DNA of 64,000 bases from a bacterium (GTDB lineage Bacteria > Patescibacteriota > UBA1384 > JAGGWG01). Shown in pieces: positions 48,895-62,282 of the stretch. The first letter of the stretch is position 1. Each line of letters opens with the position of its first letter. Below the pieces are notes generated by a model. The model saw only the letters and a list, made by a program, of their open reading frames with translations. It made no database searches and had not been told where the DNA came from. The DNA lies in the NCBI GenBank assembly GCA_021157605.1, contig JAGGWG010000006.1, forward strand, positions 2,387-66,386, written 5' to 3'. The translations under genes were made by a program, and so were the position numbers.

Positions 48895-49629
48895 TCAGTA
48901 TCTTTCTATTTCTCCTGCTTTTTGGCGGTATTGGCAGTATTCGCAAGTTGTTTTTGGCTTAGGGAGTTTATCGCTTTGCAGTATTTTTTTGATTTCTTTT
49001 AGTGTTGGCTCTATCCAAGAGGTTGAGCCTTTATAAGGCAGAAGCTTAACATCAAACTCCAGTTTGCCGTCAAAAGCTTTGCGGTCACGCTTGGCATTAA
49101 CATAGACAAAGTAGGCAGTGTCTGAAACCTTAAAGCCATTGTTTCTAAAAAGCCATTGATAGATTTCCAGCTGTCTTTTGTATCCTTCTTTCCATTCTCC
49201 GTCTAAGGTTACCTCCCCGTTAATACTCGTAGCTTTATAATCAACCACAATCAGCTCTTCTTTTTTGCTGATCCAAATGTCGTCAATAGCTCCATAAACC
49301 AAAAAATTAGTTTCAGGATCATGGTACTGAATACCTTGCCTGAAATTACGCCAGTTTTCCAATTCTTGATGCTGAAATGGTACTGCCTCTAAGCCGTAGT
49401 TTTTGAGTAGGGGGTGAGTGGAGTTTTTAGCGCGATGAATATCAAACTCTTTTTTAAGCAAATGATCAACAGCGCTGTTAAGAGTGAAAGCCGGCCACGA
49501 GGGTCGTCTGATGCCTAGTTTTACATCTAGGTAGAAACATCTTGGACACTCCACAAACAACTCAATTTTTGACCGACTGAGTTTGAAGGGGCTTTTTGGT
49601 TTTTGAAAGAAAAGATTTTGCTGCGGCAT
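48895..49629 (-). CDS. Cas4/RecB-like PD-(D/E)XK nuclease (orphan, no CRISPR array or cas genes nearby)
   Basis: It has SKIELFVECPRCFYLD at the N-terminus, a core IDDIWISKKEELIVVDYK (D...D/ExK) and the C-terminal Cys pair CEYC. Confidence 0.55.
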   Translation of the reverse strand: MPQQNLFFQKPKSPFKLSRSKIELFVECPRCFYLDVKLGIRRPSWPAFTLNSAVDHLLKKEFDIHRAKNSTHPLLKNYGLEAVPFQHQELENWRNFRQGIQYHDPETNFLVYGAIDDIWISKKEELIVVDYKATSINGEVTLDGEWKEGYKRQLEIYQWLFRNNGFKVSDTAYFVYVNAKRDRKAFDGKLEFDVKLLPYKGSTSWIEPTLKEIKKILQSDKLPKPKTTCEYCQYRQKAGEIERY

Positions 49630-49880
49630 AGTTTTAATTAGTGGTAATTTTTATATCCTTTTTTACTTTTTCGGGTTTGCTTTTGTATTATTTTGCGTTG
49701 CGGATTTTTTGTCAAAGCCTAGAACCGCTTGGACCAATCATCTCAAGGGTGAGCAGAACAACGAGAATAATAAGAATTTTTATCATCCTTCTTTTTTATT
49801 TTCTCTTTTATTGTATATTTCCATCTTGACTTTTGGGACAAATAGTTACAGAGAGAGGATTTGTTACGTCTTTTGTCTTC

Positions 49881-50612
49881 TTAAATCCTTTTTAGGTATT
49901 TTTCTATTCTTTGTATTTTTTTATCATCCAACTTATCAATTTTCTCCAGTATATATTTTAGTAAATAATGTAGTTTGTGGCTTAAGGCATTTGAGTCAAT
50001 TCCTATTTCATTTTTTCTTGTTAATGCGAATACATCTCGACTTTGATAAAAGAGAACAATAGAACGGAAGTCAGCTTTTGGCATAAAAGGCAGACCTGCG
50101 GCCGGTATATTTTTTGGTGTAAATTCATGTACGAGACTATTCCTTACTCTTAAAAGCTTTTCAATTTCTTCATCATTTAAATTTGTCAGTCTTTTCGTCG
50201 CCTTGAGGAGCTTTTTAATTTTTTTGTGCGTTCCTACCTTTAATTCTCCTTCTTTTGGCATCTGGCCAAAAGGTCTTAATAAGAAATCTGTTATCCATTT
50301 TTTACTTCTGCTTCTATATAATTTTGTTATTTTTATTTTTGCTTCTTCTAATTCTTTTATTTCTTTTTTGCTCCAAAAATCTTTTTCTTTGCTTTCTACA
50401 ATTGCGTTAACTGTTCCAAGAAACTCGATAGTTGCCAAGGTAGATAAAAGAACTGTGAAGTTGCCCCCTCCGATTGGTATTTCTCGGCTATCTTTCTCAA
50501 TGGTGGATACACATTTTGTGTATAGAAAGGTATTGCTGTCAGCAATGGAATAGCTTACTATTTTTGCGATTTTTTTGCTTACCTTATTTTTGAGAATCTT
50601 TTTTTTATTCAC
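49881..50612 (-). CDS. Hypothetical protein with a HEPN-type R-N-x3-H motif (predicted RNase-like effector)
   Basis: It has EIEKLLRVRNSLVHEF (Rx4-6H with N after R) in a helical context. It is 243 aa and overlaps the upstream gene by 8 nt. Confidence 0.4.
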   Translation of the reverse strand: MNKKKILKNKVSKKIAKIVSYSIADSNTFLYTKCVSTIEKDSREIPIGGGNFTVLLSTLATIEFLGTVNAIVESKEKDFWSKKEIKELEEAKIKITKLYRSRSKKWITDFLLRPFGQMPKEGELKVGTHKKIKKLLKATKRLTNLNDEEIEKLLRVRNSLVHEFTPKNIPAAGLPFMPKADFRSIVLFYQSRDVFALTRKNEIGIDSNALSHKLHYLLKYILEKIDKLDDKKIQRIEKYLKRI

Positions 50613-51561
50613 AGACTTCTTTTTTTTTAATACTCAAAGGGAAAAATATAAGTTTGAGCAAAAAGGTTATGATGAAAATTATGCTTAGTATAGCTAACGT
50701 AATTAGAGATAGTGTAAGTGGTAGCCAGGGAATTTTGGCAAGCAAAAAACCTAGATATGCAAGGCTAGCAGGGAATAGTTGCCGGATTAATAACAATATA
50801 CCGAGACAAATTATGATCCATGCTGATAACAGAAAGAATTTGTAAGTCCAGTATGGCCATTTATCCTTCATCAGTTTTTCTCCGCATACAATTTTGGTAG
50901 TTTCCCAAATAACCTCTCCCATTAGCAGTCCTTCTTTAGTTATGAGTATGCCATCGCGTGTGTCTTGACCATTTGCGAATTTGGCAAATCCGCGCATAAC
51001 TAAATTTTTTAGGATTCTATCTCTGCCGATCTTGTCTACTTCTTCCTGTTTGATTTTCATATCGTCTAGTTTTGGAGAATAACTATCTATATCGGCTTGT
51101 TTTAAATTGACTATAAGATTAGAAATTATCTTTTCTTTTGCTTCGGCAGGCAGTCTTTTTTCATCTGGTGGCAACCGGTCTTTGTCATTTCTAAGCTGTT
51201 TTTCTAACTTTCTTATATCTTCCAAAAAAATCAGCCAACTCTTTTCCAATACATCCAAAACAGCCTCGGCAAATTGTTTCTCTTCCTGTGTATCGAGATC
51301 CTGGTTTAGTTTTTCGCGCTGTGCGAGTAGATGGTGTTCGTATTTCTTTTTTCTTGCCTCTATGGTTTTGGCTTTTTCAAAGAGATCAAATTCAAATATA
51401 GGACTGCCCAGATGTTTATGTCCCCAATAAGTCCACCGTAAGATTCTTTTTTCAATAGGCCAAAGGCTTTCTTTTTGGTGGTCTGCTTGGGCATTTAATT
51501 GTTGGAGGGTCTGGAAAAGTTCCAATTTTTTGTAAAATTTAATAGTAAAAGGCAGGTTCAT
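50605..51561 (-). CDS. Hypothetical protein with a soluble charged coiled-coil N-domain and 2-3 C-terminal TM helices
   Basis: 318 aa. The C-terminal segments FFLLSAWIIICLGILLLI and LTLSLITLAILSIIFIITFLL are hydrophobic. It is translationally coupled to the HEPN-motif gene. Confidence 0.4.
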   Translation of the reverse strand: MNLPFTIKFYKKLELFQTLQQLNAQADHQKESLWPIEKRILRWTYWGHKHLGSPIFEFDLFEKAKTIEARKKKYEHHLLAQREKLNQDLDTQEEKQFAEAVLDVLEKSWLIFLEDIRKLEKQLRNDKDRLPPDEKRLPAEAKEKIISNLIVNLKQADIDSYSPKLDDMKIKQEEVDKIGRDRILKNLVMRGFAKFANGQDTRDGILITKEGLLMGEVIWETTKIVCGEKLMKDKWPYWTYKFFLLSAWIIICLGILLLIRQLFPASLAYLGFLLAKIPWLPLTLSLITLAILSIIFIITFLLKLIFFPLSIKKKEVCE

Positions 51562-51684
51562 GCTGTATTTATTTTACTACAAATACTAATCTGTCAAAGT
51601 TAGAGCTAGTTCCGCGTAGCTTTTCCATCTGCTGTTACTTTACAAATCTGCCTCCGAAGTCTGCTATCTCTTTAAAATGTTTGC

Positions 51685-52488
51685 TCAACAATCCTCTCTA
51701 GCTTCCTGGCCCAACAGCCATTTTTCTTTCTTCAGAACTGCCTCGTAGGTTTTTTTGTGCCAATAGAACAGCCTTTTGTCAAGTTCATCTGATATATGAT
51801 AAAAATGAAGATGGGCATACATTTCGGTTAATTTTTTTGCAAAAATCTTTTCCTTAGGTTTAAGCTCTTGAGGTTTTTTCAGCTTCTTCAACCACTGTCG
51901 GGCTTCAACATGCTCCGGCACATTGAGTTTTAGATGTAATACTATATTTTTATACGCATCGCTGCTAAATTTAAATCTCCGGATTTCTTCCAATGTGTTG
52001 TTAAAACTTCGAATTTCTTGATTAAGTCGTGCAAGATATTCATTAATTTTGGGGCCCAGTTTCGCGGTTCCTGGCAATAAAAGTGTTTGTCCAAGCACTG
52101 TATGAACATCAGGATTAAAGATATTATAGAAAGGATTGCCCCACTCTCTCAGCTTGCTGTCCGCTGTTCTTGCCATGTCGTACCGGTGATATCCCCCTTC
52201 TTCATATTTCGTCCAGCTTCCCAGAATCTCTAATTGTTTCTTCAATAGATTAATCGCCTGCATTTTTTCTTCGAAAGTTTTTTTCTCATAAAGGTAAAAA
52301 GCTACCTCCACAGAGAGTCCAGGTATAAGAGCAGGAATAATACCTGAAAGAATATTCTGCAATGAAAAAATATATCCAGTTTTCACCCATCTTGCCCATC
52401 CAAGAGCTAGTATCAAGAGGACTAGGAGTGTGGCAAACCAAAGAGTGGCTGGGTAATTTCTCAATGTTTTCTTCCACAAACTGCACAT
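51685..52488 (-). CDS. Hypothetical protein with two N-terminal TM helices and a soluble C-domain
   Basis: 267 aa. The N-terminus ATLWFATLLVLLILALGW and IIPALIPGLSVEVAFYL is hydrophobic. I recognised no catalytic motif. Confidence 0.4.
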   Translation of the reverse strand: MCSLWKKTLRNYPATLWFATLLVLLILALGWARWVKTGYIFSLQNILSGIIPALIPGLSVEVAFYLYEKKTFEEKMQAINLLKKQLEILGSWTKYEEGGYHRYDMARTADSKLREWGNPFYNIFNPDVHTVLGQTLLLPGTAKLGPKINEYLARLNQEIRSFNNTLEEIRRFKFSSDAYKNIVLHLKLNVPEHVEARQWLKKLKKPQELKPKEKIFAKKLTEMYAHLHFYHISDELDKRLFYWHKKTYEAVLKKEKWLLGQEAREDC

Positions 52489-52584: not shown

Positions 52585-52612
52585 ACAAAAAAGGGGCTCT
52601 GCCGAACCCCTT
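52585..52612 (-). terminator. Rho-independent terminator downstream of hsdR
   Basis: On the minus strand, AAGGGGUUCGGCAGAGCCCCUU forms a hairpin. It is followed by a U-run, which reads as the plus-strand A6 at 52587-52592. Confidence 0.5.
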
Positions 52613-52666: not shown

Positions 52667-55663
52667 TTAATCTGAAGAACCAGCATCTTCAAACAAAAAT
52701 TGAGCTTGTTTTAAAGTAACCTGAGCAATGGGCTCAGCCTCCTGTGGCGGAATTCCCGATCGATAAAGAATCCTTTTAATTTTGCCTCTAATCCTAGCAA
52801 GCAACACGTCATTATTCGTCCAATCTACCGCCAGATCTTCTTTAATTGCCTGTACCACTTCCTTTGCTAACCGTCTCAATTCTTTATCCTCTTTTATATA
52901 CTTTTTCCCTTTTGTCAATGCGTCATAAAAAGCTAACTCTTCCTCACTCAAGCCTAATTTTTGCCCCTTTCTCTCTTCTGCTTTTATCTCCTTTGCCAAG
53001 TCAATCAACTTATCAATAGTTTCGGCAGAATCTATAAATTTCTTCTCATATTTCTCAATTACCTCTTCCAATCTTTCTCTAAGAGAGTCATACCGCACTA
53101 TATTTTTCCTTAATCGCGAATTAATTTCATCACTTAGCAATTTTCTTAATACTTGAATCGCCAAATTGGGGTAGGCCATCTGCTTTAGTCTTTTCAAAAA
53201 TTCTTCATCAAAGATCGAAACCTCCGGCTTTTTCTTGCCTTGCATCTCTAAGATATCTATTGGTTTGTCAGCTGCAATGCTCTCGGCAATCAGCTCTTTA
53301 ACTGTAGTTTCTATTTTCTGCTCCACCGTTAGTGGCCGAACAATTACTCTTTTAACAATATTTTTCTTAATCGCCTGAAAGAACTCTACTTCTTTTTGAA
53401 TTTTATCTGCTTCGGGATGGGGCCGAATAAAAGCCCACAATTTAAACAATGCTGTTGCCTCTTTTATAAAACGTTTTTGTTTTTCTTCATCAATTCTCCC
53501 TGTTTCTTCATCAGTAATAACTTTGTTAATCGCCCGCTGAAAGAGTCGAGCCAATTTCCTTCCTGGTAGCTTGTGCCAGCTTTTGTATCTCATCCCAGCA
53601 AAATAAGAACGAACGATATCGTATTTCTCGTGCATTCTCTCAATTAACTCCTCTAGAGGGATCAAGGCTTCTTTGACCTCTTTTTCACTATAGATGTTCA
53701 ATGCTTTCCTCAAATCATCCGCAATCCCAATATAATCAACGATTAAACCTCCCTGCTTATCCTTAAAAACCCTGTTCACTCTCGCAATCGCCTGCATCAA
53801 AGTATGGTTTTTCAAAGGCTTGTCCATATACATTGTGGCCAAGCAAGGCACATCAAACCCCGTCAACCACATATCGCAAACAATCACCATTTTGAGCGGA
53901 TCATCTGGATCCACAAATCTCTCTTTTAGCTGTTCCACATCCAAATCATCCTGAACCTTTCCTTTAAAATCAGTCAACCCGGAAACAGCCACTGCACACT
54001 CTGGAGCCTCAGGGTTTTTAGAAATTAGTTTATACATCTTGACCGCTACTTTTCGACTAATGGTCACCACCATCGCTTTTCCTTCAACTGCCCGATGGTT
54101 GAAATGCCAGACGATATCTCGGGCGATTTTCTCTAGCCGGTCAGGGTCACTGATCAGCTTTTCTAATCTGGAATACCTCTTCTTAAGTTCTTCTTTTGCC
54201 TCTGTATCTAAATTCGCCGTAAGATGGTCAAAATCTTCATCTATAAACTCGTTTGTTAAATGCAAAGGCACAAGTCTTCCTTCGTAATAGATAGGAACGA
54301 CTGCTTTATCTTCCACCGCTCTATCGATAGGATAAACACTAATATAATCTCCAAAAACCAACCTCGTATCTCTATCCCGAAGGCTGATTGGAGTCCCAGT
54401 AAAACCGAGAAAAGAAGCATTGGGCATTGCCTGACGAGCATTGCCTGCAAGTTTTGCGTATTGCGATCGATGAGCTTCGTCAGCAATAACAATTAGATTA
54501 TGCTTCTTAGAGAGAAGAGGGTATTTTTCTTCTTCACGCTCGGTCTCAAATTTTTGAATTGTGGTAAAGATTATGTCTCCACTTGCTCTTTTAAGTCTCT
54601 CTCGTAAATCTCTGATTGACTTTGCCTGTTTAGGAAAGAGGCCACACCTTTTAAACTTCTTAAAAAGTTGGTTGTCAAGATCGTTTCTGTCAGTCAAAAA
54701 TACAAAAGCTGGATTTTTAAGTTCTTTAAGTTGTCGTACTTTGTTCACATAAAAAATCATTGAAATAGATTTTCCCGAGCCTTGCGTGTGCCAAAAAACT
54801 CCAATGCGACCATCTCCTTTAGGCTTAACTTTTGTCTTTGTGGCTTCAATCGCTTTGTTCACCCCAAAGTATTGGTGATAAAGGGGCATCTTTTTGACAA
54901 AAGTGCTCCCTTCTTTCTCAAAAATGATGAAATTTTGAACGATATCTAAAAAACGAGCCTTGTGGAAAATGCCTTTAATCAAAACCTCAAGTTGGTTCAC
55001 TCCTTTTGTTTTTTCGTTTTCATTCTCAATTTTTTTCCAAACCGAGAACCATTCGCGGGTAGAACTAATTGTACCGTGCTTAGCTTCTAAAAGATCAGAA
55101 ATAACAATGACTTGATTGTATTTAAAGATATCGGGGATATCTTTTTTGTAACCTTTCATCACTTGATCGTAAGCATCATCGATTGTGGCATTTTCTGTAG
55201 CCGGGTTTTTGAATTCAAAAAGAGCCAAAGGCAAACCATTTACAAAGACTATGAGATCGGGCCGCCTTACTTTTTCTGTGCCTTGAACGGAAAATTGGTT
55301 AACGATTAAAAAGTCATTTCGCTCCGGCTGCTCAAAATCAATTAGCTTAACATAATCCCATTTTTCTTCGTCAATCTTGAGCGGTACACCCTGAATAAGC
55401 AGTCGGTAAAAGTTCTTGTTAGCAATTATAAGGTCCGGATGTTCGATTCGTTGAATTTCCTCAATCGTTTCTTCTATTGCTGCTTGAGGAATTCCCGGAT
55501 TCAAATTTACCAAAGCCTCTTTGAGCCTTCTTTCTAAAATTACCTGGCGATAATCTCTTCGTTCCAATACCAAATCTTTTGGACCAAAGGCATAATCATA
55601 CCCAAGGCTTTTAAACCACTCAATTGCTGGTTGTTCTGTTAGGGTTTGTTCGATTAGTTTCAT
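52667..55663 (-). CDS. hsdR: Type I restriction enzyme R subunit
   Basis: 998 aa. It has an N-terminal PD-(D/E)XK region, an SF2 helicase motif I (FWHTQGSGKS) and motif II VIADEAHRSQ. The C-terminal half is helical. Confidence 0.9.
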   Translation of the reverse strand: MKLIEQTLTEQPAIEWFKSLGYDYAFGPKDLVLERRDYRQVILERRLKEALVNLNPGIPQAAIEETIEEIQRIEHPDLIIANKNFYRLLIQGVPLKIDEEKWDYVKLIDFEQPERNDFLIVNQFSVQGTEKVRRPDLIVFVNGLPLALFEFKNPATENATIDDAYDQVMKGYKKDIPDIFKYNQVIVISDLLEAKHGTISSTREWFSVWKKIENENEKTKGVNQLEVLIKGIFHKARFLDIVQNFIIFEKEGSTFVKKMPLYHQYFGVNKAIEATKTKVKPKGDGRIGVFWHTQGSGKSISMIFYVNKVRQLKELKNPAFVFLTDRNDLDNQLFKKFKRCGLFPKQAKSIRDLRERLKRASGDIIFTTIQKFETEREEEKYPLLSKKHNLIVIADEAHRSQYAKLAGNARQAMPNASFLGFTGTPISLRDRDTRLVFGDYISVYPIDRAVEDKAVVPIYYEGRLVPLHLTNEFIDEDFDHLTANLDTEAKEELKKRYSRLEKLISDPDRLEKIARDIVWHFNHRAVEGKAMVVTISRKVAVKMYKLISKNPEAPECAVAVSGLTDFKGKVQDDLDVEQLKERFVDPDDPLKMVIVCDMWLTGFDVPCLATMYMDKPLKNHTLMQAIARVNRVFKDKQGGLIVDYIGIADDLRKALNIYSEKEVKEALIPLEELIERMHEKYDIVRSYFAGMRYKSWHKLPGRKLARLFQRAINKVITDEETGRIDEEKQKRFIKEATALFKLWAFIRPHPEADKIQKEVEFFQAIKKNIVKRVIVRPLTVEQKIETTVKELIAESIAADKPIDILEMQGKKKPEVSIFDEEFLKRLKQMAYPNLAIQVLRKLLSDEINSRLRKNIVRYDSLRERLEEVIEKYEKKFIDSAETIDKLIDLAKEIKAEERKGQKLGLSEEELAFYDALTKGKKYIKEDKELRRLAKEVVQAIKEDLAVDWTNNDVLLARIRGKIKRILYRSGIPPQEAEPIAQVTLKQAQFLFEDAGSSD

Positions 55664-55672
55664 TTTGCCTCA

Positions 55673-56911
55673 TTAGAAAAAATAAAAATACATCCCACTA
55701 ATCCAACACCTCTTTTGCCCTTCAAAATCTGGGCCGCAAAAAGGAAGGGTTCGAGAAGTGCTGTCATTCAAAAGAAAGGGTTTGGTAGGATAACGTAGTC
55801 CCGTCCCAATATTAGCCTCATTTTTGTAAACATTTGCTATATCATCACAGATCACCGCTAAAAAAGAAGCGAAGACAGTGTCATTATGAATCATTTTGTT
55901 TTTTTGGAAAATCTCAAAAAAAGTCTCTCCCTTTTCATTCTTTAAAAATTTCGACGCTTCAACACAAATGGTCACTCTGAAATCAGCTTGAAAATCTGCT
56001 TGCAATTGCTGCTGATACACAATGTTTGCTTTTCTCAAAATGGTTTTTAAAAGTCGGGGAGACATTGTTTGGGGAAATTCTTGAAAAAGGGCCATAAAGA
56101 AAGAAGCAAGTTGATCTTTGGCGGGCTTATATTCTTCATTTTCTAAAAAATCAGGATCAAAAATTTGTTCGATAAACTCTTCAAAATGTGAGATTTTGGG
56201 GTAGAAAAACTCTGCGTAGTCCAAAAACTTTAAATATCTCTGGGTCTCTTTCTGGAAGTTTTCACTACCTATGAGAGCAATGACTATAAATTTCTTTTTT
56301 AGATTTTCTCTGCACAAAATGTTTCTGATAAAGTAACTAAGAGTTTCGAGGAAAAAGAGTCCTTCTTCTCCTGAACGATCAGCATCTTCTATTATCAAAA
56401 AGAAATCTTGCCGCTTCAAAAGTTTCTTCGACCCTTCTAGGAACAACTTTTGAAATTCAACCATAGCTTCCGGGGGGAGTTCGCGAAACAGATCCAATAG
56501 TCCAGTTAATCCACCAAGACGGGCAGAAGACAAAATGGCTTTAAAAAGTTCAATAGCGAAATTTCGGCCACTTTTCCCTTTCATCTTCTTTTCCAAAAAA
56601 GATAACTCCGAAGTCTGTTGAACCATCTCTAACAACAGCCCCTCCCATAAAAGTTTTCTGTTGGGATAACTCCAAGCCTCAAACTTTATCCATTTTTCCT
56701 TTTTCGACCTTTTTCTTTTGTCCATTATTTGGTACAACATTGTGCTCTTACCTATACCATAAGGACCAATAAGACCTACTAGAGCTGGCTTATCGATTGA
56801 AGACAATTTTTGCTCAAAGGATCTGATATATTCTGAAAAATTTAAAAGATCCGGCACCTCGGGTGTCTCTTGAAGCAGTTTCAAGTTTTTAATAAAACCT
56901 TTTGTCTTCAT
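55673..56911 (-). CDS. KAP-family P-loop NTPase embedded between hsdS and hsdR
   Basis: It has the Walker A motif LIGPYGIGKST, the KAP-typical FEAWSYPNRKLLWEGLL and the Walker B motif FFLIIEDADRS. It starts 2 nt after the hsdS stop and stops 9 nt before hsdR. Confidence 0.6.
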   Translation of the reverse strand: MKTKGFIKNLKLLQETPEVPDLLNFSEYIRSFEQKLSSIDKPALVGLIGPYGIGKSTMLYQIMDKRKRSKKEKWIKFEAWSYPNRKLLWEGLLLEMVQQTSELSFLEKKMKGKSGRNFAIELFKAILSSARLGGLTGLLDLFRELPPEAMVEFQKLFLEGSKKLLKRQDFFLIIEDADRSGEEGLFFLETLSYFIRNILCRENLKKKFIVIALIGSENFQKETQRYLKFLDYAEFFYPKISHFEEFIEQIFDPDFLENEEYKPAKDQLASFFMALFQEFPQTMSPRLLKTILRKANIVYQQQLQADFQADFRVTICVEASKFLKNEKGETFFEIFQKNKMIHNDTVFASFLAVICDDIANVYKNEANIGTGLRYPTKPFLLNDSTSRTLPFCGPDFEGQKRCWISGMYFYFF

Positions 56912-56913
56912 GG

Positions 56914-58137
56914 CTATACCCTTATTTCCCCACTCATTAATTTAGGCAAAAGTAAATCGCGAAGAGACGATAAAAGTTGGTTTTCTTTTACATTCCGGAT
57001 AAGTTGTTTATAAAGGGGGAAGCACATTTTTTCGAAATGATTAAGCAGCTTCTTTGGAGGGAGAACAAAAGGCATTCTGCAAAGATCATCCCATTTTACC
57101 ACAGGCATCTTGGTCCCCGATGCGCATTTGGAAGCGAATTCTATTGTAGAAGCAGAGAATAAGAGAGAAATTGAAAATGAATATAACTCTCGCTTTCTAG
57201 GATAAATCACAAAAACTGATTGATTTGTGACACCATCGAAAGGTGCTATAACTACCTTGTGAAAATAAGGCCTTACGGCTCCGAAAAGAATATCCCCTTT
57301 GTAAAATCTAAATGCCGATGTCTTAATCTCTGCACCCTTACCAAAAGTGGAAACACTCAGACTTCGCCGAGGAAACCTCCCTAGATCAAGTAACTTTTCT
57401 CTCTTCCACTCCTCAAAGGTTTTAATTCTCTCCCTCCGTCGCTCTACGATCTCTCCCAACCTCTCTACTCTCCATCCTTCCGGAATTTTGCCTAATTCGC
57501 TGTCAACAAATTTCACTTTTTCCCAACCCGGGAATCTAAATTTCACAAACCACTCTTCAAAAATCGCCTGCGCCATTTCCTCCAGTGTCTGGTTAATCTT
57601 GTTGTTGAGCTCAATCTTCTCATCAAAAGCAGAAAGAATATCCGCAATGCGCTTTTGTTCGTTGAGGTCTTGGGGGATTGTTATTTCAAAGTTCTCAAAT
57701 TTGGATTTAGAAATATTCGTGTATACCGACCCACTATATTTTAACAATCGAGGTTTCACGTATTTAAAACAGTAATAAAGGAATTCGGGTAGAATTTTAT
57801 CTATATCGCAAATTACAGAATTGATTTGTTGATTAGTAAAGCTTTCCCTGCATGTTATTCCGACTTCTCCTACAGTAGCCAAACACGAAACCACAACAGC
57901 TTTGGGTGGCAACTTTAAATTTCTCATCGATTGTGCCCCTTTTTCTGAAAGAGTTCGCTCTGTTTTCTCTATGTAGCGCTGATTTTTTAGATCGGGAATG
58001 GTAATAAATGGGTAACGACCGCCGAAATTTCTTGGATCAGTAGTAGAAGGAGTTTTGCCTGTTATAACCTTCCCGATTTCTTTAATTTTCACGCTTTTCC
58101 ATTTTTTACTCTTGGAAAACATCTTTTCGTCCTCCAT
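56914..58137 (-). CDS. hsdS: Type I restriction-modification specificity subunit
   Basis: It has two target-recognition domains separated by conserved helical spacers (e.g. the IFEEWFVKFRFPGW and LRDLLLPKLMSGEI repeats). An alternative start at the MFSK codon (58122) has a better GGAGGA Shine-Dalgarno sequence. Confidence 0.85.
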   Translation of the reverse strand: MEDEKMFSKSKKWKSVKIKEIGKVITGKTPSTTDPRNFGGRYPFITIPDLKNQRYIEKTERTLSEKGAQSMRNLKLPPKAVVVSCLATVGEVGITCRESFTNQQINSVICDIDKILPEFLYYCFKYVKPRLLKYSGSVYTNISKSKFENFEITIPQDLNEQKRIADILSAFDEKIELNNKINQTLEEMAQAIFEEWFVKFRFPGWEKVKFVDSELGKIPEGWRVERLGEIVERRRERIKTFEEWKREKLLDLGRFPRRSLSVSTFGKGAEIKTSAFRFYKGDILFGAVRPYFHKVVIAPFDGVTNQSVFVIYPRKRELYSFSISLLFSASTIEFASKCASGTKMPVVKWDDLCRMPFVLPPKKLLNHFEKMCFPLYKQLIRNVKENQLLSSLRDLLLPKLMSGEIRV

Positions 58138-58169: not shown

Positions 58170-59075
58170 TTATTTAAAAAGCTCCTCCAAGAAAATCCTA
58201 ATTTTAACTGCTGCACCTTCCACGTCTGACAATTGAATATTGATCGAGTATGAATGTTGAGCACTATCAATTAAAATTTTGTAATTCATTACCTCTTTGT
58301 AAATTCTTTTGTTGGAAAGCAACCTTTCCGCTTTCCCCAAGAGATTTTTTGTCTCTAAATACTGCCCCTTTTCATCTTTGACTTCTGACTCTTTGTTTAT
58401 TTGCTGGAACTTCCTCACAATAGAAAGAGGCAAAATTCTTCTTAAAATTAATATAGATGCTATTGGTCTTTTGTTGGCGAAATTAAAATTAAAATCATCA
58501 CACAATATTTTCAAATCTGGAGGTAGCTTTTTCACCAAGCTGTTTGGAAATAAATCTTTCTCAGTTCGACTGCTTCTTATTGTTGGTTTATCTTTAGTTT
58601 TGCTAATCGTCCAATCAAGAAGCTTATCACGCACAGCCTCTAAAACTGAAACTATCTGGCTTTGAGGGAAAAACATTGCAAACTCTGTCCGCATCTTAAC
58701 TGCTTGTGCAAGCATTTCTTGCATGGGTGGTGGATATTTAATTTGCAAGTAGTCTTCACTTTTATCAAGCAGGTTCTCAAGTTCGGGAATTGACTCAAAG
58801 ATGTGTTGTCGAGAAAGCAAATCTTGAGTTTTGTCGTCTTTGGGAAACATCACGGGTATCCATCGACCCAAAACAGGATTAAGTGCCTTGGGCTCACCTC
58901 TTATCAACCTATAGCTAGGTGGTTTGCCTGAACTGTAACCATTCATTTCGCGATCAATCCATTTTAAAAATTCTTTATCGCCCAATTCACTCGCCAGGAT
59001 CTTTGCCTTCCTTAATAACTCCGAAACTTTTGCTTCAGATTTAATGATCTCGTTTTTAAATTCCTGGATATCCAT
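58170..59075 (-). CDS. Hypothetical ~300-aa protein embedded between hsdM and hsdS (possibly Abi-like)
   Basis: I prefer the MDIQEF start at 59075 with a GAGGG Shine-Dalgarno sequence. The track starts at 59117 and would overlap the upstream gene by 32 nt. The N-terminal segment LKWIDREMNGY resembles abortive-infection (AbiTii-like) N-domains, but this is unverified. Confidence 0.4.
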   Translation of the reverse strand: MDIQEFKNEIIKSEAKVSELLRKAKILASELGDKEFLKWIDREMNGYSSGKPPSYRLIRGEPKALNPVLGRWIPVMFPKDDKTQDLLSRQHIFESIPELENLLDKSEDYLQIKYPPPMQEMLAQAVKMRTEFAMFFPQSQIVSVLEAVRDKLLDWTISKTKDKPTIRSSRTEKDLFPNSLVKKLPPDLKILCDDFNFNFANKRPIASILILRRILPLSIVRKFQQINKESEVKDEKGQYLETKNLLGKAERLLSNKRIYKEVMNYKILIDSAQHSYSINIQLSDVEGAAVKIRIFLEELFK

Positions 59076-59085
59076 ACTTCCCTCT

Positions 59086-59379
59086 TTATCTGATAACGAA
59101 AAATTTATAAATCTCAAAAAGCAAACTTGCTATAGCAATTAGCATTCCAATGCCCGCTATGATAACACCAGCTAAAGTGATTTTATTTAAGGCTTTTGTT
59201 AACTTCTCTGAAGAGGCGGTGGCCTTCTCGATATTCGAATTAAGGTTTTTTAGCTCTTCCTTAATCCTTCCCACTGTACGAAAAAAGCCTGAAGGCCAAG
59301 GTCTCACAGAGAAATAGGAAGTCAAAGTGTCCAAAAATTTCCGGATTTTTTCATAATCTTCTTCCTTAAATCTCATCAT
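59086..59379 (-). CDS. Small tail-anchored membrane protein (97 aa)
   Basis: It has a soluble helical N-terminus and a single C-terminal TM (ITLAGVIIAGIGMLIAIASLLF). There is a 4-nt ATGA overlap with the GIY-YIG stop. Confidence 0.35.
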   Translation of the reverse strand: MMRFKEEDYEKIRKFLDTLTSYFSVRPWPSGFFRTVGRIKEELKNLNSNIEKATASSEKLTKALNKITLAGVIIAGIGMLIAIASLLFEIYKFFVIR

Positions 59380-59681
59380 TTTCCTTTCTGTTCTTTATTA
59401 AATGGCGGTTTTCTTCTCCTAACAAGAAAAGTCTCTAGCCTTTTGGCTTCTTCTACAGAGTTAGTAAGAATCACTCCAAACTTTACCGCTTGCTGTTTCT
59501 GCTCTCGAATCTCCCGCACACTTTCCAAAATTCTTTTTGGCAAACGTCCTCTTTTCGCTCGCCCCACTTTTTGAAGTCGACCAGAACGAGTGAAGATCCC
59601 GTATACCCCCGGCTTGTCTTTGGGCAATTGTTTGAGAGTGACTTTGGTGATCTTTTTGATTGAAACAAATTTTTTACGCAT
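59376..59681 (-). CDS. Small stand-alone GIY-YIG nuclease domain protein (YhbQ-like, 101 aa)
   Basis: It has KPGVYGIF...GRLQKVGRAKRGRL...ILESVREI...VILTNSVEEAKRLETFLVRRRKPPFN. This places the GIY / Y(K)VG / Arg / Glu / Asn catalytic pattern in order. It overlaps the hsdM stop by 8 nt and has a GGGAG Shine-Dalgarno sequence. Confidence 0.6.
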   Translation of the reverse strand: MRKKFVSIKKITKVTLKQLPKDKPGVYGIFTRSGRLQKVGRAKRGRLPKRILESVREIREQKQQAVKFGVILTNSVEEAKRLETFLVRRRKPPFNKEQKGK

Positions 59682-61278
59682 TTTGTCTCCCTAAACGCTT
59701 TAAGTTATGCTTAATTTTTCTTTCTAGCTTCCTCGACTCCTTGAAATATTTTTCTAATTGCTTCGTCAATTTTTTCATCTTCTTCTCAAACGGTATGCCG
59801 TCGTCTTCTTCGGGCTTAATACCCACATATCTTCCCGGCGTCAAAACATAACCTGCTTTTCTAATTTCTTCGATAGTGACTGCCTTACAAAATCCTGGCT
59901 CATCCTTGTATTTTCCGGCTCCCTTTTCTCCCCGCCAAGCTCTAACAGTATCAGCGATTTTCTGAATCTGCTTGTCAGTGATCACATATTGTTTTCTGGA
60001 AATTGGCTCATACATTTCGCGCGCATCAATAAACAAAGTTTCACCACGACGGTCTCTAAATCTTTTATTTCTTTTGTCTTTGGTCAAAAACCAAAGAGAG
60101 ACCGGCAATGAAACGTTGTAGAAAAGTTTGGGCGGACAGGCAATAATTACGTCTACCAAATCATCTCTAATAATTCTTTTTCTAATTTCGCCTTCTTTGC
60201 CTCCCACAGCCAGGGCGCCATTTGCCATCACAAAACCAGCTACTCCGCCGGGAGCCAAGTGGTAAACAAAGTGCTGGATCCACATAAAGTTTGCGTTGCT
60301 GTTAGGAGGAAGACCATATTTGATCCTTGGATCTTTCTGAATTCTATCTGCGCCCCAATCTGAAAAGTTAAAGGGGGGATTGGAAATTACAATATCTGCT
60401 CGGAGATCAGGGAATTTGTCATTGTGGTAAGAATCGCCTTGTTCAACGTGGGCGATGATCCCTCTAATTGCCAAATTCATTTGGCAAAGCCGCCAGGTGG
60501 TTGAGTTTTTTTCTTGGCCATAAAAGTTTATTTTGCTGGGATCTTTTTTGTGCATTTCAATAAATTTTCTGCTTTGGATAAACATACCTCCGCTTCCGCA
60601 GGCTGGGTCAAAAACCCGACAGTTTTCATAGGGCTCCAAAATCTCTATCAGTAACTTTACTAAACATCGAGGCGTGTAGAATTCGCCACCTCTTTTGCCC
60701 TCTGCAGAAGCAAACTGACCAATGAAATACTCATAGATTCTTCCCAAGAGATCTTTGTCTTTTTCTTTTTGTTCTTGAATCTTGCTAAAGAGATTGATCA
60801 GCTCGCCTAGAATTCTGGGTTCTAAATCTCTGACTCGCGTGTACTCCACAAAAATTTTAGGCAGAACACCTTTTAGTTGAGGGTTTTCTTGTTCTATTAA
60901 TTCCATTGCCTTGTCTAGCTTACGAGCAATATCAGAGGAGGTAGCGTTTTCTTGAAGATAGGACCATCGGGCTTCTGGGGGAATATAAAAAATGCCCTGG
61001 CTAAGGTAAGAATCTTTGTCTTCAGTAATAGCTTCTCGAGCTTGAGGCGTAGGGGCGTAATAGGGGCTGTTTTTGTCTTGGGTGGCTTTTTCGAGAAATC
61101 TCTTTCGCTTATCAAAAGCCTCAGAAATGTATTTTAAAAAGATCAATCCCAAAACAATATGTTTGTATTCAGAGGCATCCATGCTGCCTCGCAGCTTGTC
61201 AGCTGCTTGCCAAAGTTGGTTTTCAAAATCGATGTCTTTCATTTCTGCTATCTTAGCAGATTTACCCCTAAAAATCAA
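59674..61278 (-). CDS. hsdM: Type I restriction-modification N6-adenine DNA methyltransferase subunit
   Basis: It has an N-terminal HsdM_N helix domain, the motif I region FDPACGSGGMF and motif IV NPPFNFSDW. Confidence 0.9.
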   Translation of the reverse strand: MIFRGKSAKIAEMKDIDFENQLWQAADKLRGSMDASEYKHIVLGLIFLKYISEAFDKRKRFLEKATQDKNSPYYAPTPQAREAITEDKDSYLSQGIFYIPPEARWSYLQENATSSDIARKLDKAMELIEQENPQLKGVLPKIFVEYTRVRDLEPRILGELINLFSKIQEQKEKDKDLLGRIYEYFIGQFASAEGKRGGEFYTPRCLVKLLIEILEPYENCRVFDPACGSGGMFIQSRKFIEMHKKDPSKINFYGQEKNSTTWRLCQMNLAIRGIIAHVEQGDSYHNDKFPDLRADIVISNPPFNFSDWGADRIQKDPRIKYGLPPNSNANFMWIQHFVYHLAPGGVAGFVMANGALAVGGKEGEIRKRIIRDDLVDVIIACPPKLFYNVSLPVSLWFLTKDKRNKRFRDRRGETLFIDAREMYEPISRKQYVITDKQIQKIADTVRAWRGEKGAGKYKDEPGFCKAVTIEEIRKAGYVLTPGRYVGIKPEEDDGIPFEKKMKKLTKQLEKYFKESRKLERKIKHNLKRLGRQNA

Positions 61279-61346: not shown

Positions 61347-61378
61347 AAAACAAAAACCTTCGCAAAGTATTGCGAAGG
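61347..61378 (-). terminator. Rho-independent terminator separating the zinc-ribbon genes from the hsdM operon
   Basis: A perfect 9-bp stem CCTTCGCAA / TTGCGAAGG with a 4-nt loop is followed on the minus strand by a U-rich run (plus AAAACAAAAA). Confidence 0.6.
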
Positions 61379-61391
61379 TGAATTGATTGGG

Positions 61392-61578: not shown

Positions 61579-61935
61579 TTAGTCTCCCGGCAGAAAAGGA
61601 TGGTTGCCTTTTTCTTCCACGGTCTCGATCAAAGTGATAATGATGACTATTGGTAATAAGAAGAGGTAAAGGCACATTCCTCCAAATTTCTGCAGAGCGA
61701 ATCTTATTCGCCATTCTGCGGGAGCAATGAGTCTGTTCCAAAAATACAGGCTCGCGCTGTAGCGAATTACTTGTTCCGGAGGTATTGCGAGTATTCTTCG
61801 CTCTATGACTTCCACGAAATGATGACACCGGTTACAAAAATAACGATTTACTTTGGTGTCTCCTGATTCTAGTATTGGTTCTACGAACTGCAAAAAGTTA
61901 TTGCACCGTTCACATCTTATTTCAGCACCTCTCAT
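61579..61935 (-). CDS. Zinc-ribbon protein with a hydrophobic C-terminal region (paralog A)
   Basis: It has CERC...CNRC, then LYFWNRLIAPAEW, then a C-terminal TM (LYLFLLPIVIIITLI). Confidence 0.45.
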   Translation of the reverse strand: MRGAEIRCERCNNFLQFVEPILESGDTKVNRYFCNRCHHFVEVIERRILAIPPEQVIRYSASLYFWNRLIAPAEWRIRFALQKFGGMCLYLFLLPIVIIITLIETVEEKGNHPFLPGD

Positions 61936-62282
61936 TTTAATACCTCCTCTTCTTCGTAATCGTTTTCGCGCGAGATGAGATCCATAACATAATCAACTGT
62001 AAACAAAGGCACAATGATAGAAAGGAGACCCAACTCCCTTATTTCTTCGAGGGCGAAAGATACCCCCCATGCCAAAGGAGCAACCAGCTTTCTCCAAAAA
62101 TAAAGTGTTGGGCCACACCTTTTTTGCTCTGTGAGAGTAAGATTGAGACCAGGATCGTACCACGATATTACCTCAACATATTCATTGCAATTGCCGCAAT
62201 AATAACGCTCAATGTCTTTGTCGTCGAGACTGAGTATAGTCTCGACGAATCGCAGTAACTTCCCGCATTTGTCGCACTTCAT
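61932..62282 (-). CDS. Zinc-ribbon protein with a hydrophobic C-terminal region (paralog B)
   Basis: It has CDKC...CGNC, then LYFWRKLVAPLAW, then a hydrophobic helix. It aligns colinearly with paralog A and overlaps it by 4 nt. Confidence 0.45.
   Translation of the reverse strand: MKCDKCGKLLRFVETILSLDDKDIERYYCGNCNEYVEVISWYDPGLNLTLTEQKRCGPTLYFWRKLVAPLAWGVSFALEEIRELGLLSIIVPLFTVDYVMDLISRENDYEEEEVLK

What the first reader, a model, noticed from the sequence alone, without database searches (positions are those of the whole stretch)
55673..56911. KAP-family P-loop NTPase in the PrrC-equivalent slot between hsdS and hsdR
It has Walker A (GPYGIGKST), the KAP hallmark FEAWSYPNRKLLW and Walker B (FLIIEDADRS). 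It lacks the inserted TM helices that many KAP NTPases carry, and has a ~200-aa C-terminal domain with no motif I recognise. In prrABCD, the gene at this position is an ATPase-regulated anticodon nuclease held in check by the RM complex. A KAP NTPase in that position invites the hypothesis of an analogous RM-masked effector or sensor.
Basis: partly seen in the sequence, partly recalled or inferred. Interest (0 to 1): 0.7.

Follow-up and report, generated by a model that had tools for sequence, protein, structure and literature searches.

The report
Swappable KAP ATPase inside restriction operon
A real gene for a small, soluble KAP-family ATPase sits between the hsdS and hsdR genes of a Type I restriction operon, where it is one of many interchangeable passenger genes; it is probably an extra anti-phage gene and not a PrrC-style hidden toxin.

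Summary

The protein belongs to a compact family of about 250 clusters, mostly from Patescibacteria. In 14 of 127 homologous loci the gene occupies the same hsdS-to-hsdR slot. The other loci lie in mobile or defence islands.

The decisive test was a sister genome whose HsdR is 90% identical. It has an unrelated 187-aa gene in that slot, and DNA homology breaks exactly at the hsdS stop and the hsdR start. All seven of the closest HsdR relatives I inspected carry some other cargo there.

I conclude that this is a swappable embedded defence cargo gene: a new member of known kinds. PrrC-like coupling to the restriction system is not excluded, but nothing specific supports it.

The parts
55673..56911 (-). 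Gene for a 412-aa soluble KAP-family P-loop NTPase (the finding).
   Evidence: ORF. Pfam KAP_NTPase scores 25.3 bits against a gathering score of 20. 42 homologues. AF2 model has pLDDT 84.4 and pTM 0.82.
56741..56767 (-). Walker A / P-loop, GPYGIGKST (aa 49-57).
   Evidence: G49, G52, G54, K55 and S56 are invariant in the 38-sequence alignment A1.
56645..56683 (-). KAP hallmark FEAWSYPNRKLLW (aa 77-89).
   Evidence: W74, F77, A79, W80 and W89 are invariant.
56372..56401 (-). Walker B, FLIIEDADRS (aa 171-180).
   Evidence: E175, D176 and D178 are invariant; R179 is nearly invariant.
56494..56572 (-). Low-confidence linker (about aa 114-139) at the site where other KAP NTPases carry TM helices.
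   Evidence: pLDDT is below 50 at aa 114-120 and 128-139. P0031 and P0042 have hydrophobic inserts at the equivalent position.
56006..56194 (-). Helical lid of the AAA+-like module (about aa 240-302), with invariant R286, K289 and R293 (MSPRLLKTILRKAN).
   Evidence: Secondary structure, invariant columns. This region is still inside the Pfam KAP match.
55676..56005 (-). C-terminal domain of about 110 aa (aa 303-412), mainly helical, of unknown fold. Only D310, R312 and Y408 are conserved.
56914..58137 (-). hsdS (specificity subunit). Its stop codon is 2 nt before the KAP ATG.
   Evidence: Pfam Methylase_S, E 1e-42. Junction sequence.
52667..55663 (-). hsdR (restriction subunit). Its ATG is 9 nt after the KAP stop, with a GAGG in the spacer.
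   Evidence: Pfam HSDR_N, SWI2_SNF2, T1R_D3-like and T1RH-like_C. Junction sequence.
59674..61278 (-). hsdM (methylase subunit), first gene of the operon.
   Evidence: Pfam N6_Mtase, E 2.8e-108, and HsdM_N.
58170..59117 (-). AbiTii-family gene: second cargo, in the hsdM-hsdS slot.
   Evidence: Pfam AbiTii, E 4.9e-36. PADLOC AbiTii, E 7.8e-38.
59086..59681 (-). Two small genes in the hsdM-hsdS slot. One is 101 aa with weak NCBIfam hits to the N-terminal region of UvrC; the other is 97 aa with a weak AbiTi hit.
   Evidence: NCBIfam uvrC N-terminal hit, E 8.4e-6. PADLOC AbiTi, E 0.0085. Both are conserved in L132 at 88% and 86% aa identity.
52591..52612 (-). Terminator-like hairpin just after hsdR (end of the operon).
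61356..61379 (-). Terminator-like hairpin just upstream of hsdM (end of the preceding transcription unit).

Best explanation
The gene encodes a compact, soluble KAP-family P-loop NTPase. It has an ORC/Cdc6-like AAA+ base and lid, followed by a family-specific C-terminal domain of about 110 aa. It is an interchangeable cargo cassette in the hsdS-hsdR slot of a Type I R-M operon and is co-transcribed, and probably translationally coupled, with hsdM, hsdS and hsdR. It most likely acts as an autonomous NTP-dependent anti-phage or anti-MGE protein that adds a second layer of defence to the restriction system. The analogy is with the experimentally validated single-gene KAP NTPase defences. It is not an R-M subunit and not a PrrC-type masked nuclease. 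Shown here: the family membership, the fold, the absence of a known effector domain, the operon structure, the recurrence in T1RM slots and the cassette swap. Inferred: the defence function, NTP-driven switching or oligomerisation, and a sensing or output role for the C-terminal domain.
Against: There are no functional data for this subfamily. It differs from the validated KAP defences, which have TM helices and large C-terminal regions. No effector domain is recognisable, so the output step is unknown. PADLOC matches to QatA, PifA and PDC-S20 are weak and cover only the N-terminus. Some neighbours of non-RM homologues are housekeeping genes. No homologue was found in the viral or plasmid collections. 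KAP and HsdR divergence correlate within RM-linked loci (r 0.78), and KAP is nearly always the gene abutting hsdR; both could mean a closer functional tie to HsdR than 'autonomous cargo' implies.
Confidence: 0.6

Rival explanations
1. PrrC-like guard. The KAP NTPase is held silent by the HsdMSR complex, or monitors it, and is triggered when a phage anti-restriction protein disables the enzyme. It then switches on an NTP-dependent abortive or inhibitory response.
For: It occupies the same slot as prrC, tightly coupled to hsdR. The placement recurs in 14 of 127 loci, in several KAP clades and in distinct HsdR lineages. In 13 of those 14 loci KAP directly abuts hsdR, even when other cargo shares the slot. 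KAP and HsdR identities co-vary (r 0.78).
Against: About 89% of family members have no adjacent R-M system. There is no nuclease, HEPN or TIR domain, and no conserved His or Glu cluster in the C-terminal domain. There is no homology to PrrC's ABC-type ATPase. The closest relatives of this operon work with unrelated cargo, and the swap is clean. The same slot hosts Shedu, PIN, UvrD and similar genes, which act on their own. The correlation uses non-independent pairs and may reflect host phylogeny.
Confidence: 0.12
2. Accessory factor of the restriction enzyme. An ORC/Cdc6- or TnsC-like AAA+ adaptor binds DNA or HsdR and modulates loading, translocation or restriction alleviation.
For: The top structural neighbours are DNA-bound initiator or adaptor AAA+ proteins: Cdc6/Orc1, TnsC and MuB. 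The gene is immediately adjacent to hsdR and tightly coupled to it. KAP and HsdR co-diverge.
Against: Most Type I systems, including this operon's 90%-identical relative, lack it. Most family members are far from any hsdR. The C-terminal domain is not a recognisable winged helix or DNA-binding fold.
Confidence: 0.08
3. It is not a defence gene. It could be a selfish or maintenance function of mobile elements (for example addiction or exclusion of competing elements), or an NTPase with an unrelated cellular role that merely hitch-hikes in a recombination-prone slot.
For: Non-RM copies lie near large serine recombinases, a T4SS coupling protein and Bro-N/Fic genes. Some neighbours are housekeeping genes. 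No trigger or effector has been identified.
Against: Enrichment next to bona fide defence genes and inside R-M operons is the classic signature of defence. Four KAP NTPases have been shown to give phage protection.
Confidence: 0.1

Closest known systems
KAP P-loop NTPase anti-phage proteins (EF_KAP and three metagenomic KAP proteins; bioRxiv 10.1101/2025.10.07.681051), plus PifA of the F plasmid
   Same: Same Pfam family (PF07693) and same Walker A, hallmark and Walker B layout. It is a single gene found in defence or mobile islands, with a C-terminal region that has no known domain.
   Different: The window protein has no TM helices and is much smaller (412 aa, against 720 profile positions for the PADLOC PifA model). 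Its extra C-terminal part is about 110 aa, against 322 aa in EF_KAP. Similarity to PifA in PADLOC is only E 2.5e-5, over the N-terminal ~70 aa. It sits inside an R-M operon. It is untested.
PrrC / RloC anticodon nucleases in Type I R-M loci
   Same: A gene placed between hsdS and hsdR, a P-loop NTPase N-terminal module, and optional cargo of the operon.
   Different: PrrC has an ABC-type ATPase (Pfam AAA_13) and a C-terminal anticodon nuclease domain. Here the fold is AAA+/ORC-like, there is no AAA_13 hit, and no nuclease domain or catalytic triad is seen.
Other Type I R-M-embedded defence genes (TgvAB in V. cholerae VPI-2, PMC11411939; the rlo genes of Campylobacter jejuni, cited there)
   Same: An independent defence gene nested between hsd genes and co-expressed with them. 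The cargo varies between related operons.
   Different: The protein family differs: TgvAB is GmrSD-like (type IV restriction). No KAP NTPase cargo turned up in my limited literature searches.
QatA (QatABCD) and RADAR RdrA / BREX BrxC ATPases
   Same: They are ORC/Cdc6-like or KAP-like ATPase modules used in anti-phage systems. PADLOC QatA, E 2.4e-5; Foldseek RdrA, E 1.4e-5, and BrxC, E 6.5e-5.
   Different: Those proteins are 550-850+ aa and work with dedicated partners (QatBCD, RdrB, BrxB/PglZ and others). None of these partners was detected in the Pfam or PADLOC scans of the genes around it.

Membership tests
KAP family P-loop NTPase (Pfam PF07693) | The profile HMM match passes the curated gathering score over the whole domain. 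| tested here: met
   25.3 bits against a gathering score of 20, over aa 26-299, which is profile 2-290 of 293. PF07693 is precomputed on most of the 42 homologues.
KAP family P-loop NTPase (Pfam PF07693) | Walker A GxxGxGKS/T, the aromatic W/F..AW hallmark after strand 2, and Walker B hhhhEDxDR. | tested here: met
   All are present and invariant in alignment A1.
KAP family P-loop NTPase (Pfam PF07693) | Transmembrane helices inserted between Walker A and Walker B (typical of the family but not universal). | tested here: not met
   The highest KD19 mean is 1.16, so there is no TM segment in the window protein. The site is a short, low-pLDDT linker. P0031 and P0042 keep hydrophobic inserts there.
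PrrC/RloC anticodon nuclease | N-terminal ABC-type ATPase (Pfam AAA_13). | tested here: not met
   No AAA_13 hit at E <= 0.1. ABC_tran matches only at the P-loop (E 0.022). The fold is AAA+/ORC-Cdc6-like.
PrrC/RloC anticodon nuclease | C-terminal anticodon nuclease domain with conserved catalytic Arg, Glu and His residues. | tested here: not met
PrrC/RloC anticodon nuclease | Encoded between hsdS and hsdR of a Type I R-M operon. | tested here: met
PrrC/RloC anticodon nuclease | Activity is masked by the R-M complex and released by a phage anti-restriction factor. | not testable with these tools
   This needs toxicity and interaction assays.
Type I R-M-embedded defence cargo | Nested within the hsd operon, co-oriented and co-transcribed. 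| tested here: met
   Gaps of 2 and 9 nt, and terminator-like hairpins only at the operon ends.
Type I R-M-embedded defence cargo | Dispensable and variable: closely related operons lack it or carry other genes in its place. | tested here: met
   L132-L138. The homology breakpoints fall exactly at the gene borders.
Type I R-M-embedded defence cargo | Confers protection on its own. | not testable with these tools
   This needs phage challenge of an expressing host.
QatABCD (QatA) | A full-length QatA match, with QatB, QatC (QueC-like) and QatD (TatD) genes nearby. | tested here: not met
   The QatA matches cover only aa 21-111 (PADLOC, E 2.4e-5) or aa 39-83 (NCBIfam, 17 bits against a cut-off of 600). 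No QueC or TatD family was found in the neighbours.

The most novel reading that the evidence does not exclude
The KAP NTPase is a dedicated guard of HsdR. It senses stalling, inactivation or inhibition of the Type I enzyme (for example by Ocr/ArdA-like anti-restriction proteins) through its family-specific C-terminal domain. It then switches, by NTP-driven oligomerisation, to a non-nuclease output. That would be PrrC logic built on an ORC/Cdc6-like ATPase. It would explain why KAP almost always abuts hsdR, why it has been captured by several distinct T1RM lineages, and why it co-diverges with HsdR.
Probability: 0.12. Interest if true: 0.7.

Novelty: new member of a known kind. Interest (0 to 1): 0.4.

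Why it matters
The KAP gene alone is a modest addition: an uncharacterised, TM-less, minimal branch of a family that has only recently been shown experimentally to give phage defence. It is concentrated in Patescibacteria (CPR), where defence biology is barely explored.

The more useful result concerns the operon. This lineage of Type I R-M operons has two cargo slots, hsdM-hsdS and hsdS-hsdR, which are swapped cleanly at the gene borders. All seven of the closest relatives I inspected carry cargo there, and most of those genes match nothing in Pfam or PADLOC. That makes the hsdS-hsdR slot a practical bait for finding new defence genes in uncultured bacteria. The KAP gene would serve as a control cargo for asking whether embedded genes act independently of the restriction enzyme or are coupled to it.

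Tried and rejected
3. Sequence search of the PDB: only P-loop-level ABC matches, at E >= 0.035.
4. A conserved partner gene in non-RM loci: all-against-all clustering of neighbours found none more recurrent than hsdS, hsdR and hsdM (7, 7 and 6 of 56 loci). The next most recurrent clusters are large serine recombinases.
5. Phage or plasmid origin: no homologue in IMG/VR contigs or in PLSDB plasmids by tblastn.
6. A single RM-embedded clade: rejected, because the RM-linked members fall in at least 4 places on an NJ tree. That tree is distance-based and has no support values.
7. The afdb50 fold library was unavailable, so no structural comparison with other predicted KAP proteins was made.
8. The original 2004 KAP family paper could not be opened. 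Its content is cited only as summarised in the 2025 preprint.
9. One PADLOC scan failed on the size limit and was repeated on 136 neighbours. That output gives family counts, not a per-locus table.

Full report
**Observation**

The ORF listing shows a 412-aa ORF at 55673..56911 on the - strand. The three quoted motifs are present: GPYGIGKST at aa 49-57, FEAWSYPNRKLLW at aa 77-89 and FLIIEDADRS at aa 171-180. Pfam places the protein in KAP_NTPase (PF07693) at 25.3 bits, above the gathering score of 20. The match covers aa 26-299, which is profile positions 2-290 of 293. The weaker AAA_22, AAA_16, nSTAND and NB-ARC matches all fall below their thresholds.

The flanking genes on the same strand form one operon:
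- hsdM, 59674-61278
- a 101-aa gene with weak NCBIfam hits to the N-terminal region of UvrC
- a 97-aa gene with a weak AbiTi hit
- AbiTii, 58170-59117
- hsdS, 56914-58137
- the KAP gene
- hsdR, 52667-55663

The hsdS stop is 2 nt before the KAP ATG. The KAP stop is 9 nt before the hsdR ATG, and that spacer contains GAGG. Terminator-like hairpins occur just upstream of hsdM and just downstream of hsdR. The only terminator-like matches in between are weak (5-7 pairs). The window is chromosomal: dnaG and rpoD lie nearby. The same contig is present in public metagenome assemblies.

**Anatomy of the protein**

An AF2 model built on a 38-sequence family alignment is confident (pLDDT 84.4, pTM 0.82). 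The low-confidence parts are aa 114-139 and aa 361-400.

The invariant residues are:
- Walker A: G49, G52, G54, K55, S56
- the hallmark: W74, F77, A79, W80, W89
- Walker B: E175, D176, D178
- K228
- lid residues R286, K289, R293

The window protein has no hydrophobic segment. Relatives P0031 and P0042 carry strongly hydrophobic inserts exactly between Walker A and Walker B, the classical KAP insert site. In the window protein that site is the short low-pLDDT linker.

**The family**

A word-indexed search found 42 homologues; the best is 42% identical. An exhaustive profile search found 252 representatives of 50%-identity clusters at E <= 1e-30, 405 at E <= 1e-10 and 4440 at E <= 1e-3. Nearly all of the 150 listed hits are 390-460 aa and match end to end. 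Hosts named in genome records are mostly Patescibacteria/CPR: Saccharibacteria, Paceibacteria, Gracilibacteria, Peribacteria and others. A few are Zixibacteria, Gammaproteobacteria, Bacteroidetes and Bdellovibrionales. Many copies are intact only under genetic code 25. No homologue was found in IMG/VR viral contigs or PLSDB plasmids.

**Neighbourhoods**

I collected 127 loci and screened them with the window's Hsd proteins.
- 14 loci have hsdS upstream and/or hsdR downstream on the same strand. That is 9 of 105 loci with enough downstream sequence to judge, and 10 of 94 with enough upstream sequence.
- In 13 of the 14, KAP directly abuts hsdR, or the contig ends first. The gap is 0-7 nt, or a short overlap. 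L085 has two further genes in between.
- L020 has the KAP gene directly after an EcoEI-type hsdR.
- Among all neighbours, hsdS, hsdR and hsdM were the most recurrent families.
- On an NJ tree the RM-linked members fall in at least four places, and the window protein is a long lone branch.

Where the slot holds more than one gene, the other genes are known defence types:
- HEPN_Cthe2314 (L004)
- OLD-like AAA_15/AAA_21, with or without TOPRIM (L007, L040)
- Shedu SduA (L016)
- PIN (L076)
- UvrD (L077)
- Abi_C and DUF3800 (L085)

In non-RM loci the neighbours include the following. PADLOC matches to DpdF, GajA, PsyrT, AriA and type II methylases. A T4SS coupling protein, an ankyrin-trypsin protein, DUF4268 and a RelA/SpoT-like protein. 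Large serine recombinases in about ten loci, and Bro-N and Fic genes. There are also plain housekeeping genes. Overall the context is mobile and defence islands.

**The decisive comparison**

The window's HsdR has very close relatives: 90%, 69%, 67% identity and so on, with more than 100 at >= 55%. Its KAP has none above 42%.

The 90% relative (L132) has hsdM, the same 101-aa and 96-aa genes, hsdS, an unrelated 187-aa gene, and then hsdR. blastn between the two loci shows 82-86% identity over four stretches:
- hsdM plus the two small genes (window 61305-59098)
- the central part of hsdS (57671-57452)
- the last 70 nt of hsdS (56985-56916)
- hsdR (55664-52632)

Identity ends at the hsdS stop codon and resumes one base before the hsdR ATG. 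The KAP gene is thus a cleanly exchanged cassette, and AbiTii is likewise absent from L132.

The next six HsdR relatives carry other genes in the slot. These are a 294-aa, a 262-aa (N-terminally hydrophobic), a GajB-like UvrD, a >= 327-aa, a four-gene set and a 229-aa gene. None is related to KAP where I compared sequences, and none matches PADLOC except the UvrD.

Conversely, the HsdRs of the other KAP-linked loci are only 36-43% identical to the window's. KAP has therefore been captured by distinct T1RM lineages. The same cargo types (AbiTii, DUF3800, OLD-like, UvrD) also circulate among these operons.

Within RM-linked loci, KAP and HsdR pairwise identities correlate (Pearson 0.78, 45 non-independent pairs). 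This fits long co-inheritance in some clades, but host phylogeny could also explain it.

**Interpretation**

The gene is a bona fide KAP NTPase, and its position matches that of prrC. It fails the PrrC membership tests on the ATPase type and on the nuclease domain. Most relatives live without an adjacent R-M system. In this operon's own lineage the slot is a general cargo bay.

Embedded cargo in Type I operons is documented. TgvAB is functional and largely independent of HsdR, though protection was higher in the full cluster. That paper also cites the Campylobacter rlo genes and embedded genes in other defence systems (PMC11411939).

KAP NTPases were long suspected of a role in excluding foreign DNA. 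They have now been shown to protect against phage as single genes. In the protein tested in detail (EF_KAP), Walker B mutations or deletion of the C-terminal region abolished defence, and it did not act by abortive infection (bioRxiv 10.1101/2025.10.07.681051).

The best-supported reading is therefore an autonomous, NTP-dependent defence protein co-expressed with the restriction system. The ORC/Cdc6-like module probably acts as a nucleotide-gated switch or oligomeriser, and the orphan C-terminal domain as sensor or output; both steps are inferred, not shown. A PrrC-like guard role or an HsdR accessory role remain minority possibilities. The near-constant adjacency to hsdR keeps them alive.

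**Verdict**

The gene is a new member of known kinds: KAP NTPase defence candidates and T1RM-embedded cargo. Interest is moderate. The more valuable by-product is the demonstration of a cleanly swapping cargo slot, full of unannotated genes, in CPR Type I operons.

Noticed in passing
window 58170-59681 (- strand): The hsdM-hsdS slot also carries cargo: a 101-aa gene with weak hits to the UvrC N-terminal region, a 97-aa membrane-anchored protein with a weak AbiTi hit, and an AbiTii gene. This may be a complete two-gene AbiT-like system. The two small genes are conserved (88% and 86% aa identity) in sister locus L132, but AbiTii is not.
   Followed up: partly
window 48895-52488 (- strand): Three genes directly downstream of hsdR have no Pfam or PADLOC match: 267 aa, 318 aa with a hydrophobic C-terminus, and 243 aa. 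A Cas4-like PD-(D/E)XK nuclease follows. This may be a continuation of the defence island.
   Followed up: partly
window 61579-62282 (- strand): Two adjacent paralogous small proteins (118 and 116 aa) lie just upstream of hsdM, separated from it by a terminator-like hairpin. Each has an N-terminal CxxC...CxxC zinc-ribbon-like motif and a hydrophobic tail.
   Followed up: no
L132-L138 (hsdS-hsdR slots): All seven of the closest relatives of the window's HsdR that I inspected carry one to four genes between hsdS and hsdR. Apart from one GajB-like UvrD, none matches Pfam or PADLOC. The slot could serve as bait for new defence genes.
   Followed up: partly
L007, L040, L133; L077, L135; L085, L134; window, L005, L134: The same cargo types recur in different Type I operons: OLD-like AAA_15/21, UvrD, DUF3800 and AbiTii. 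This suggests a shared pool of cassettes exchanged between hsd operons.
   Followed up: no
L013, L019, L022, L026, L028, L035, L041, L042, L046: Non-RM copies of the KAP gene, mostly in Saccharibacteria, lie within 10 kb of large serine recombinases, sometimes several per locus. In L041 and L042 a T4SS coupling protein follows directly downstream. This points to integrative mobile elements.
   Followed up: partly
L010, L014, L021, L023, L041, L046, L047, L050-L057, L060, L062, L067, L084, L093, L097-L098, L101-L102, L104, L106, L109-L111, L118-L120, L126: In these 32 loci the KAP ORF is substantially longer when translated with genetic code 25 (UGA = Gly). The named hosts are mainly Gracilibacteria and Peribacteria, with a few of other phyla. 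In some loci this may only reflect an upstream extension of the ORF.
   Followed up: partly
L093 3965-5608 and 7001-8455; P0024/P0028/P0039; P0029/P0036; P0022/P0040: Some genomes appear to hold two or three paralogues. L093 carries two copies about 1.4 kb apart. The other groups share the same longest-contig length (47,268, 57,481 and 2,087,519 nt), which suggests one contig each.
   Followed up: no
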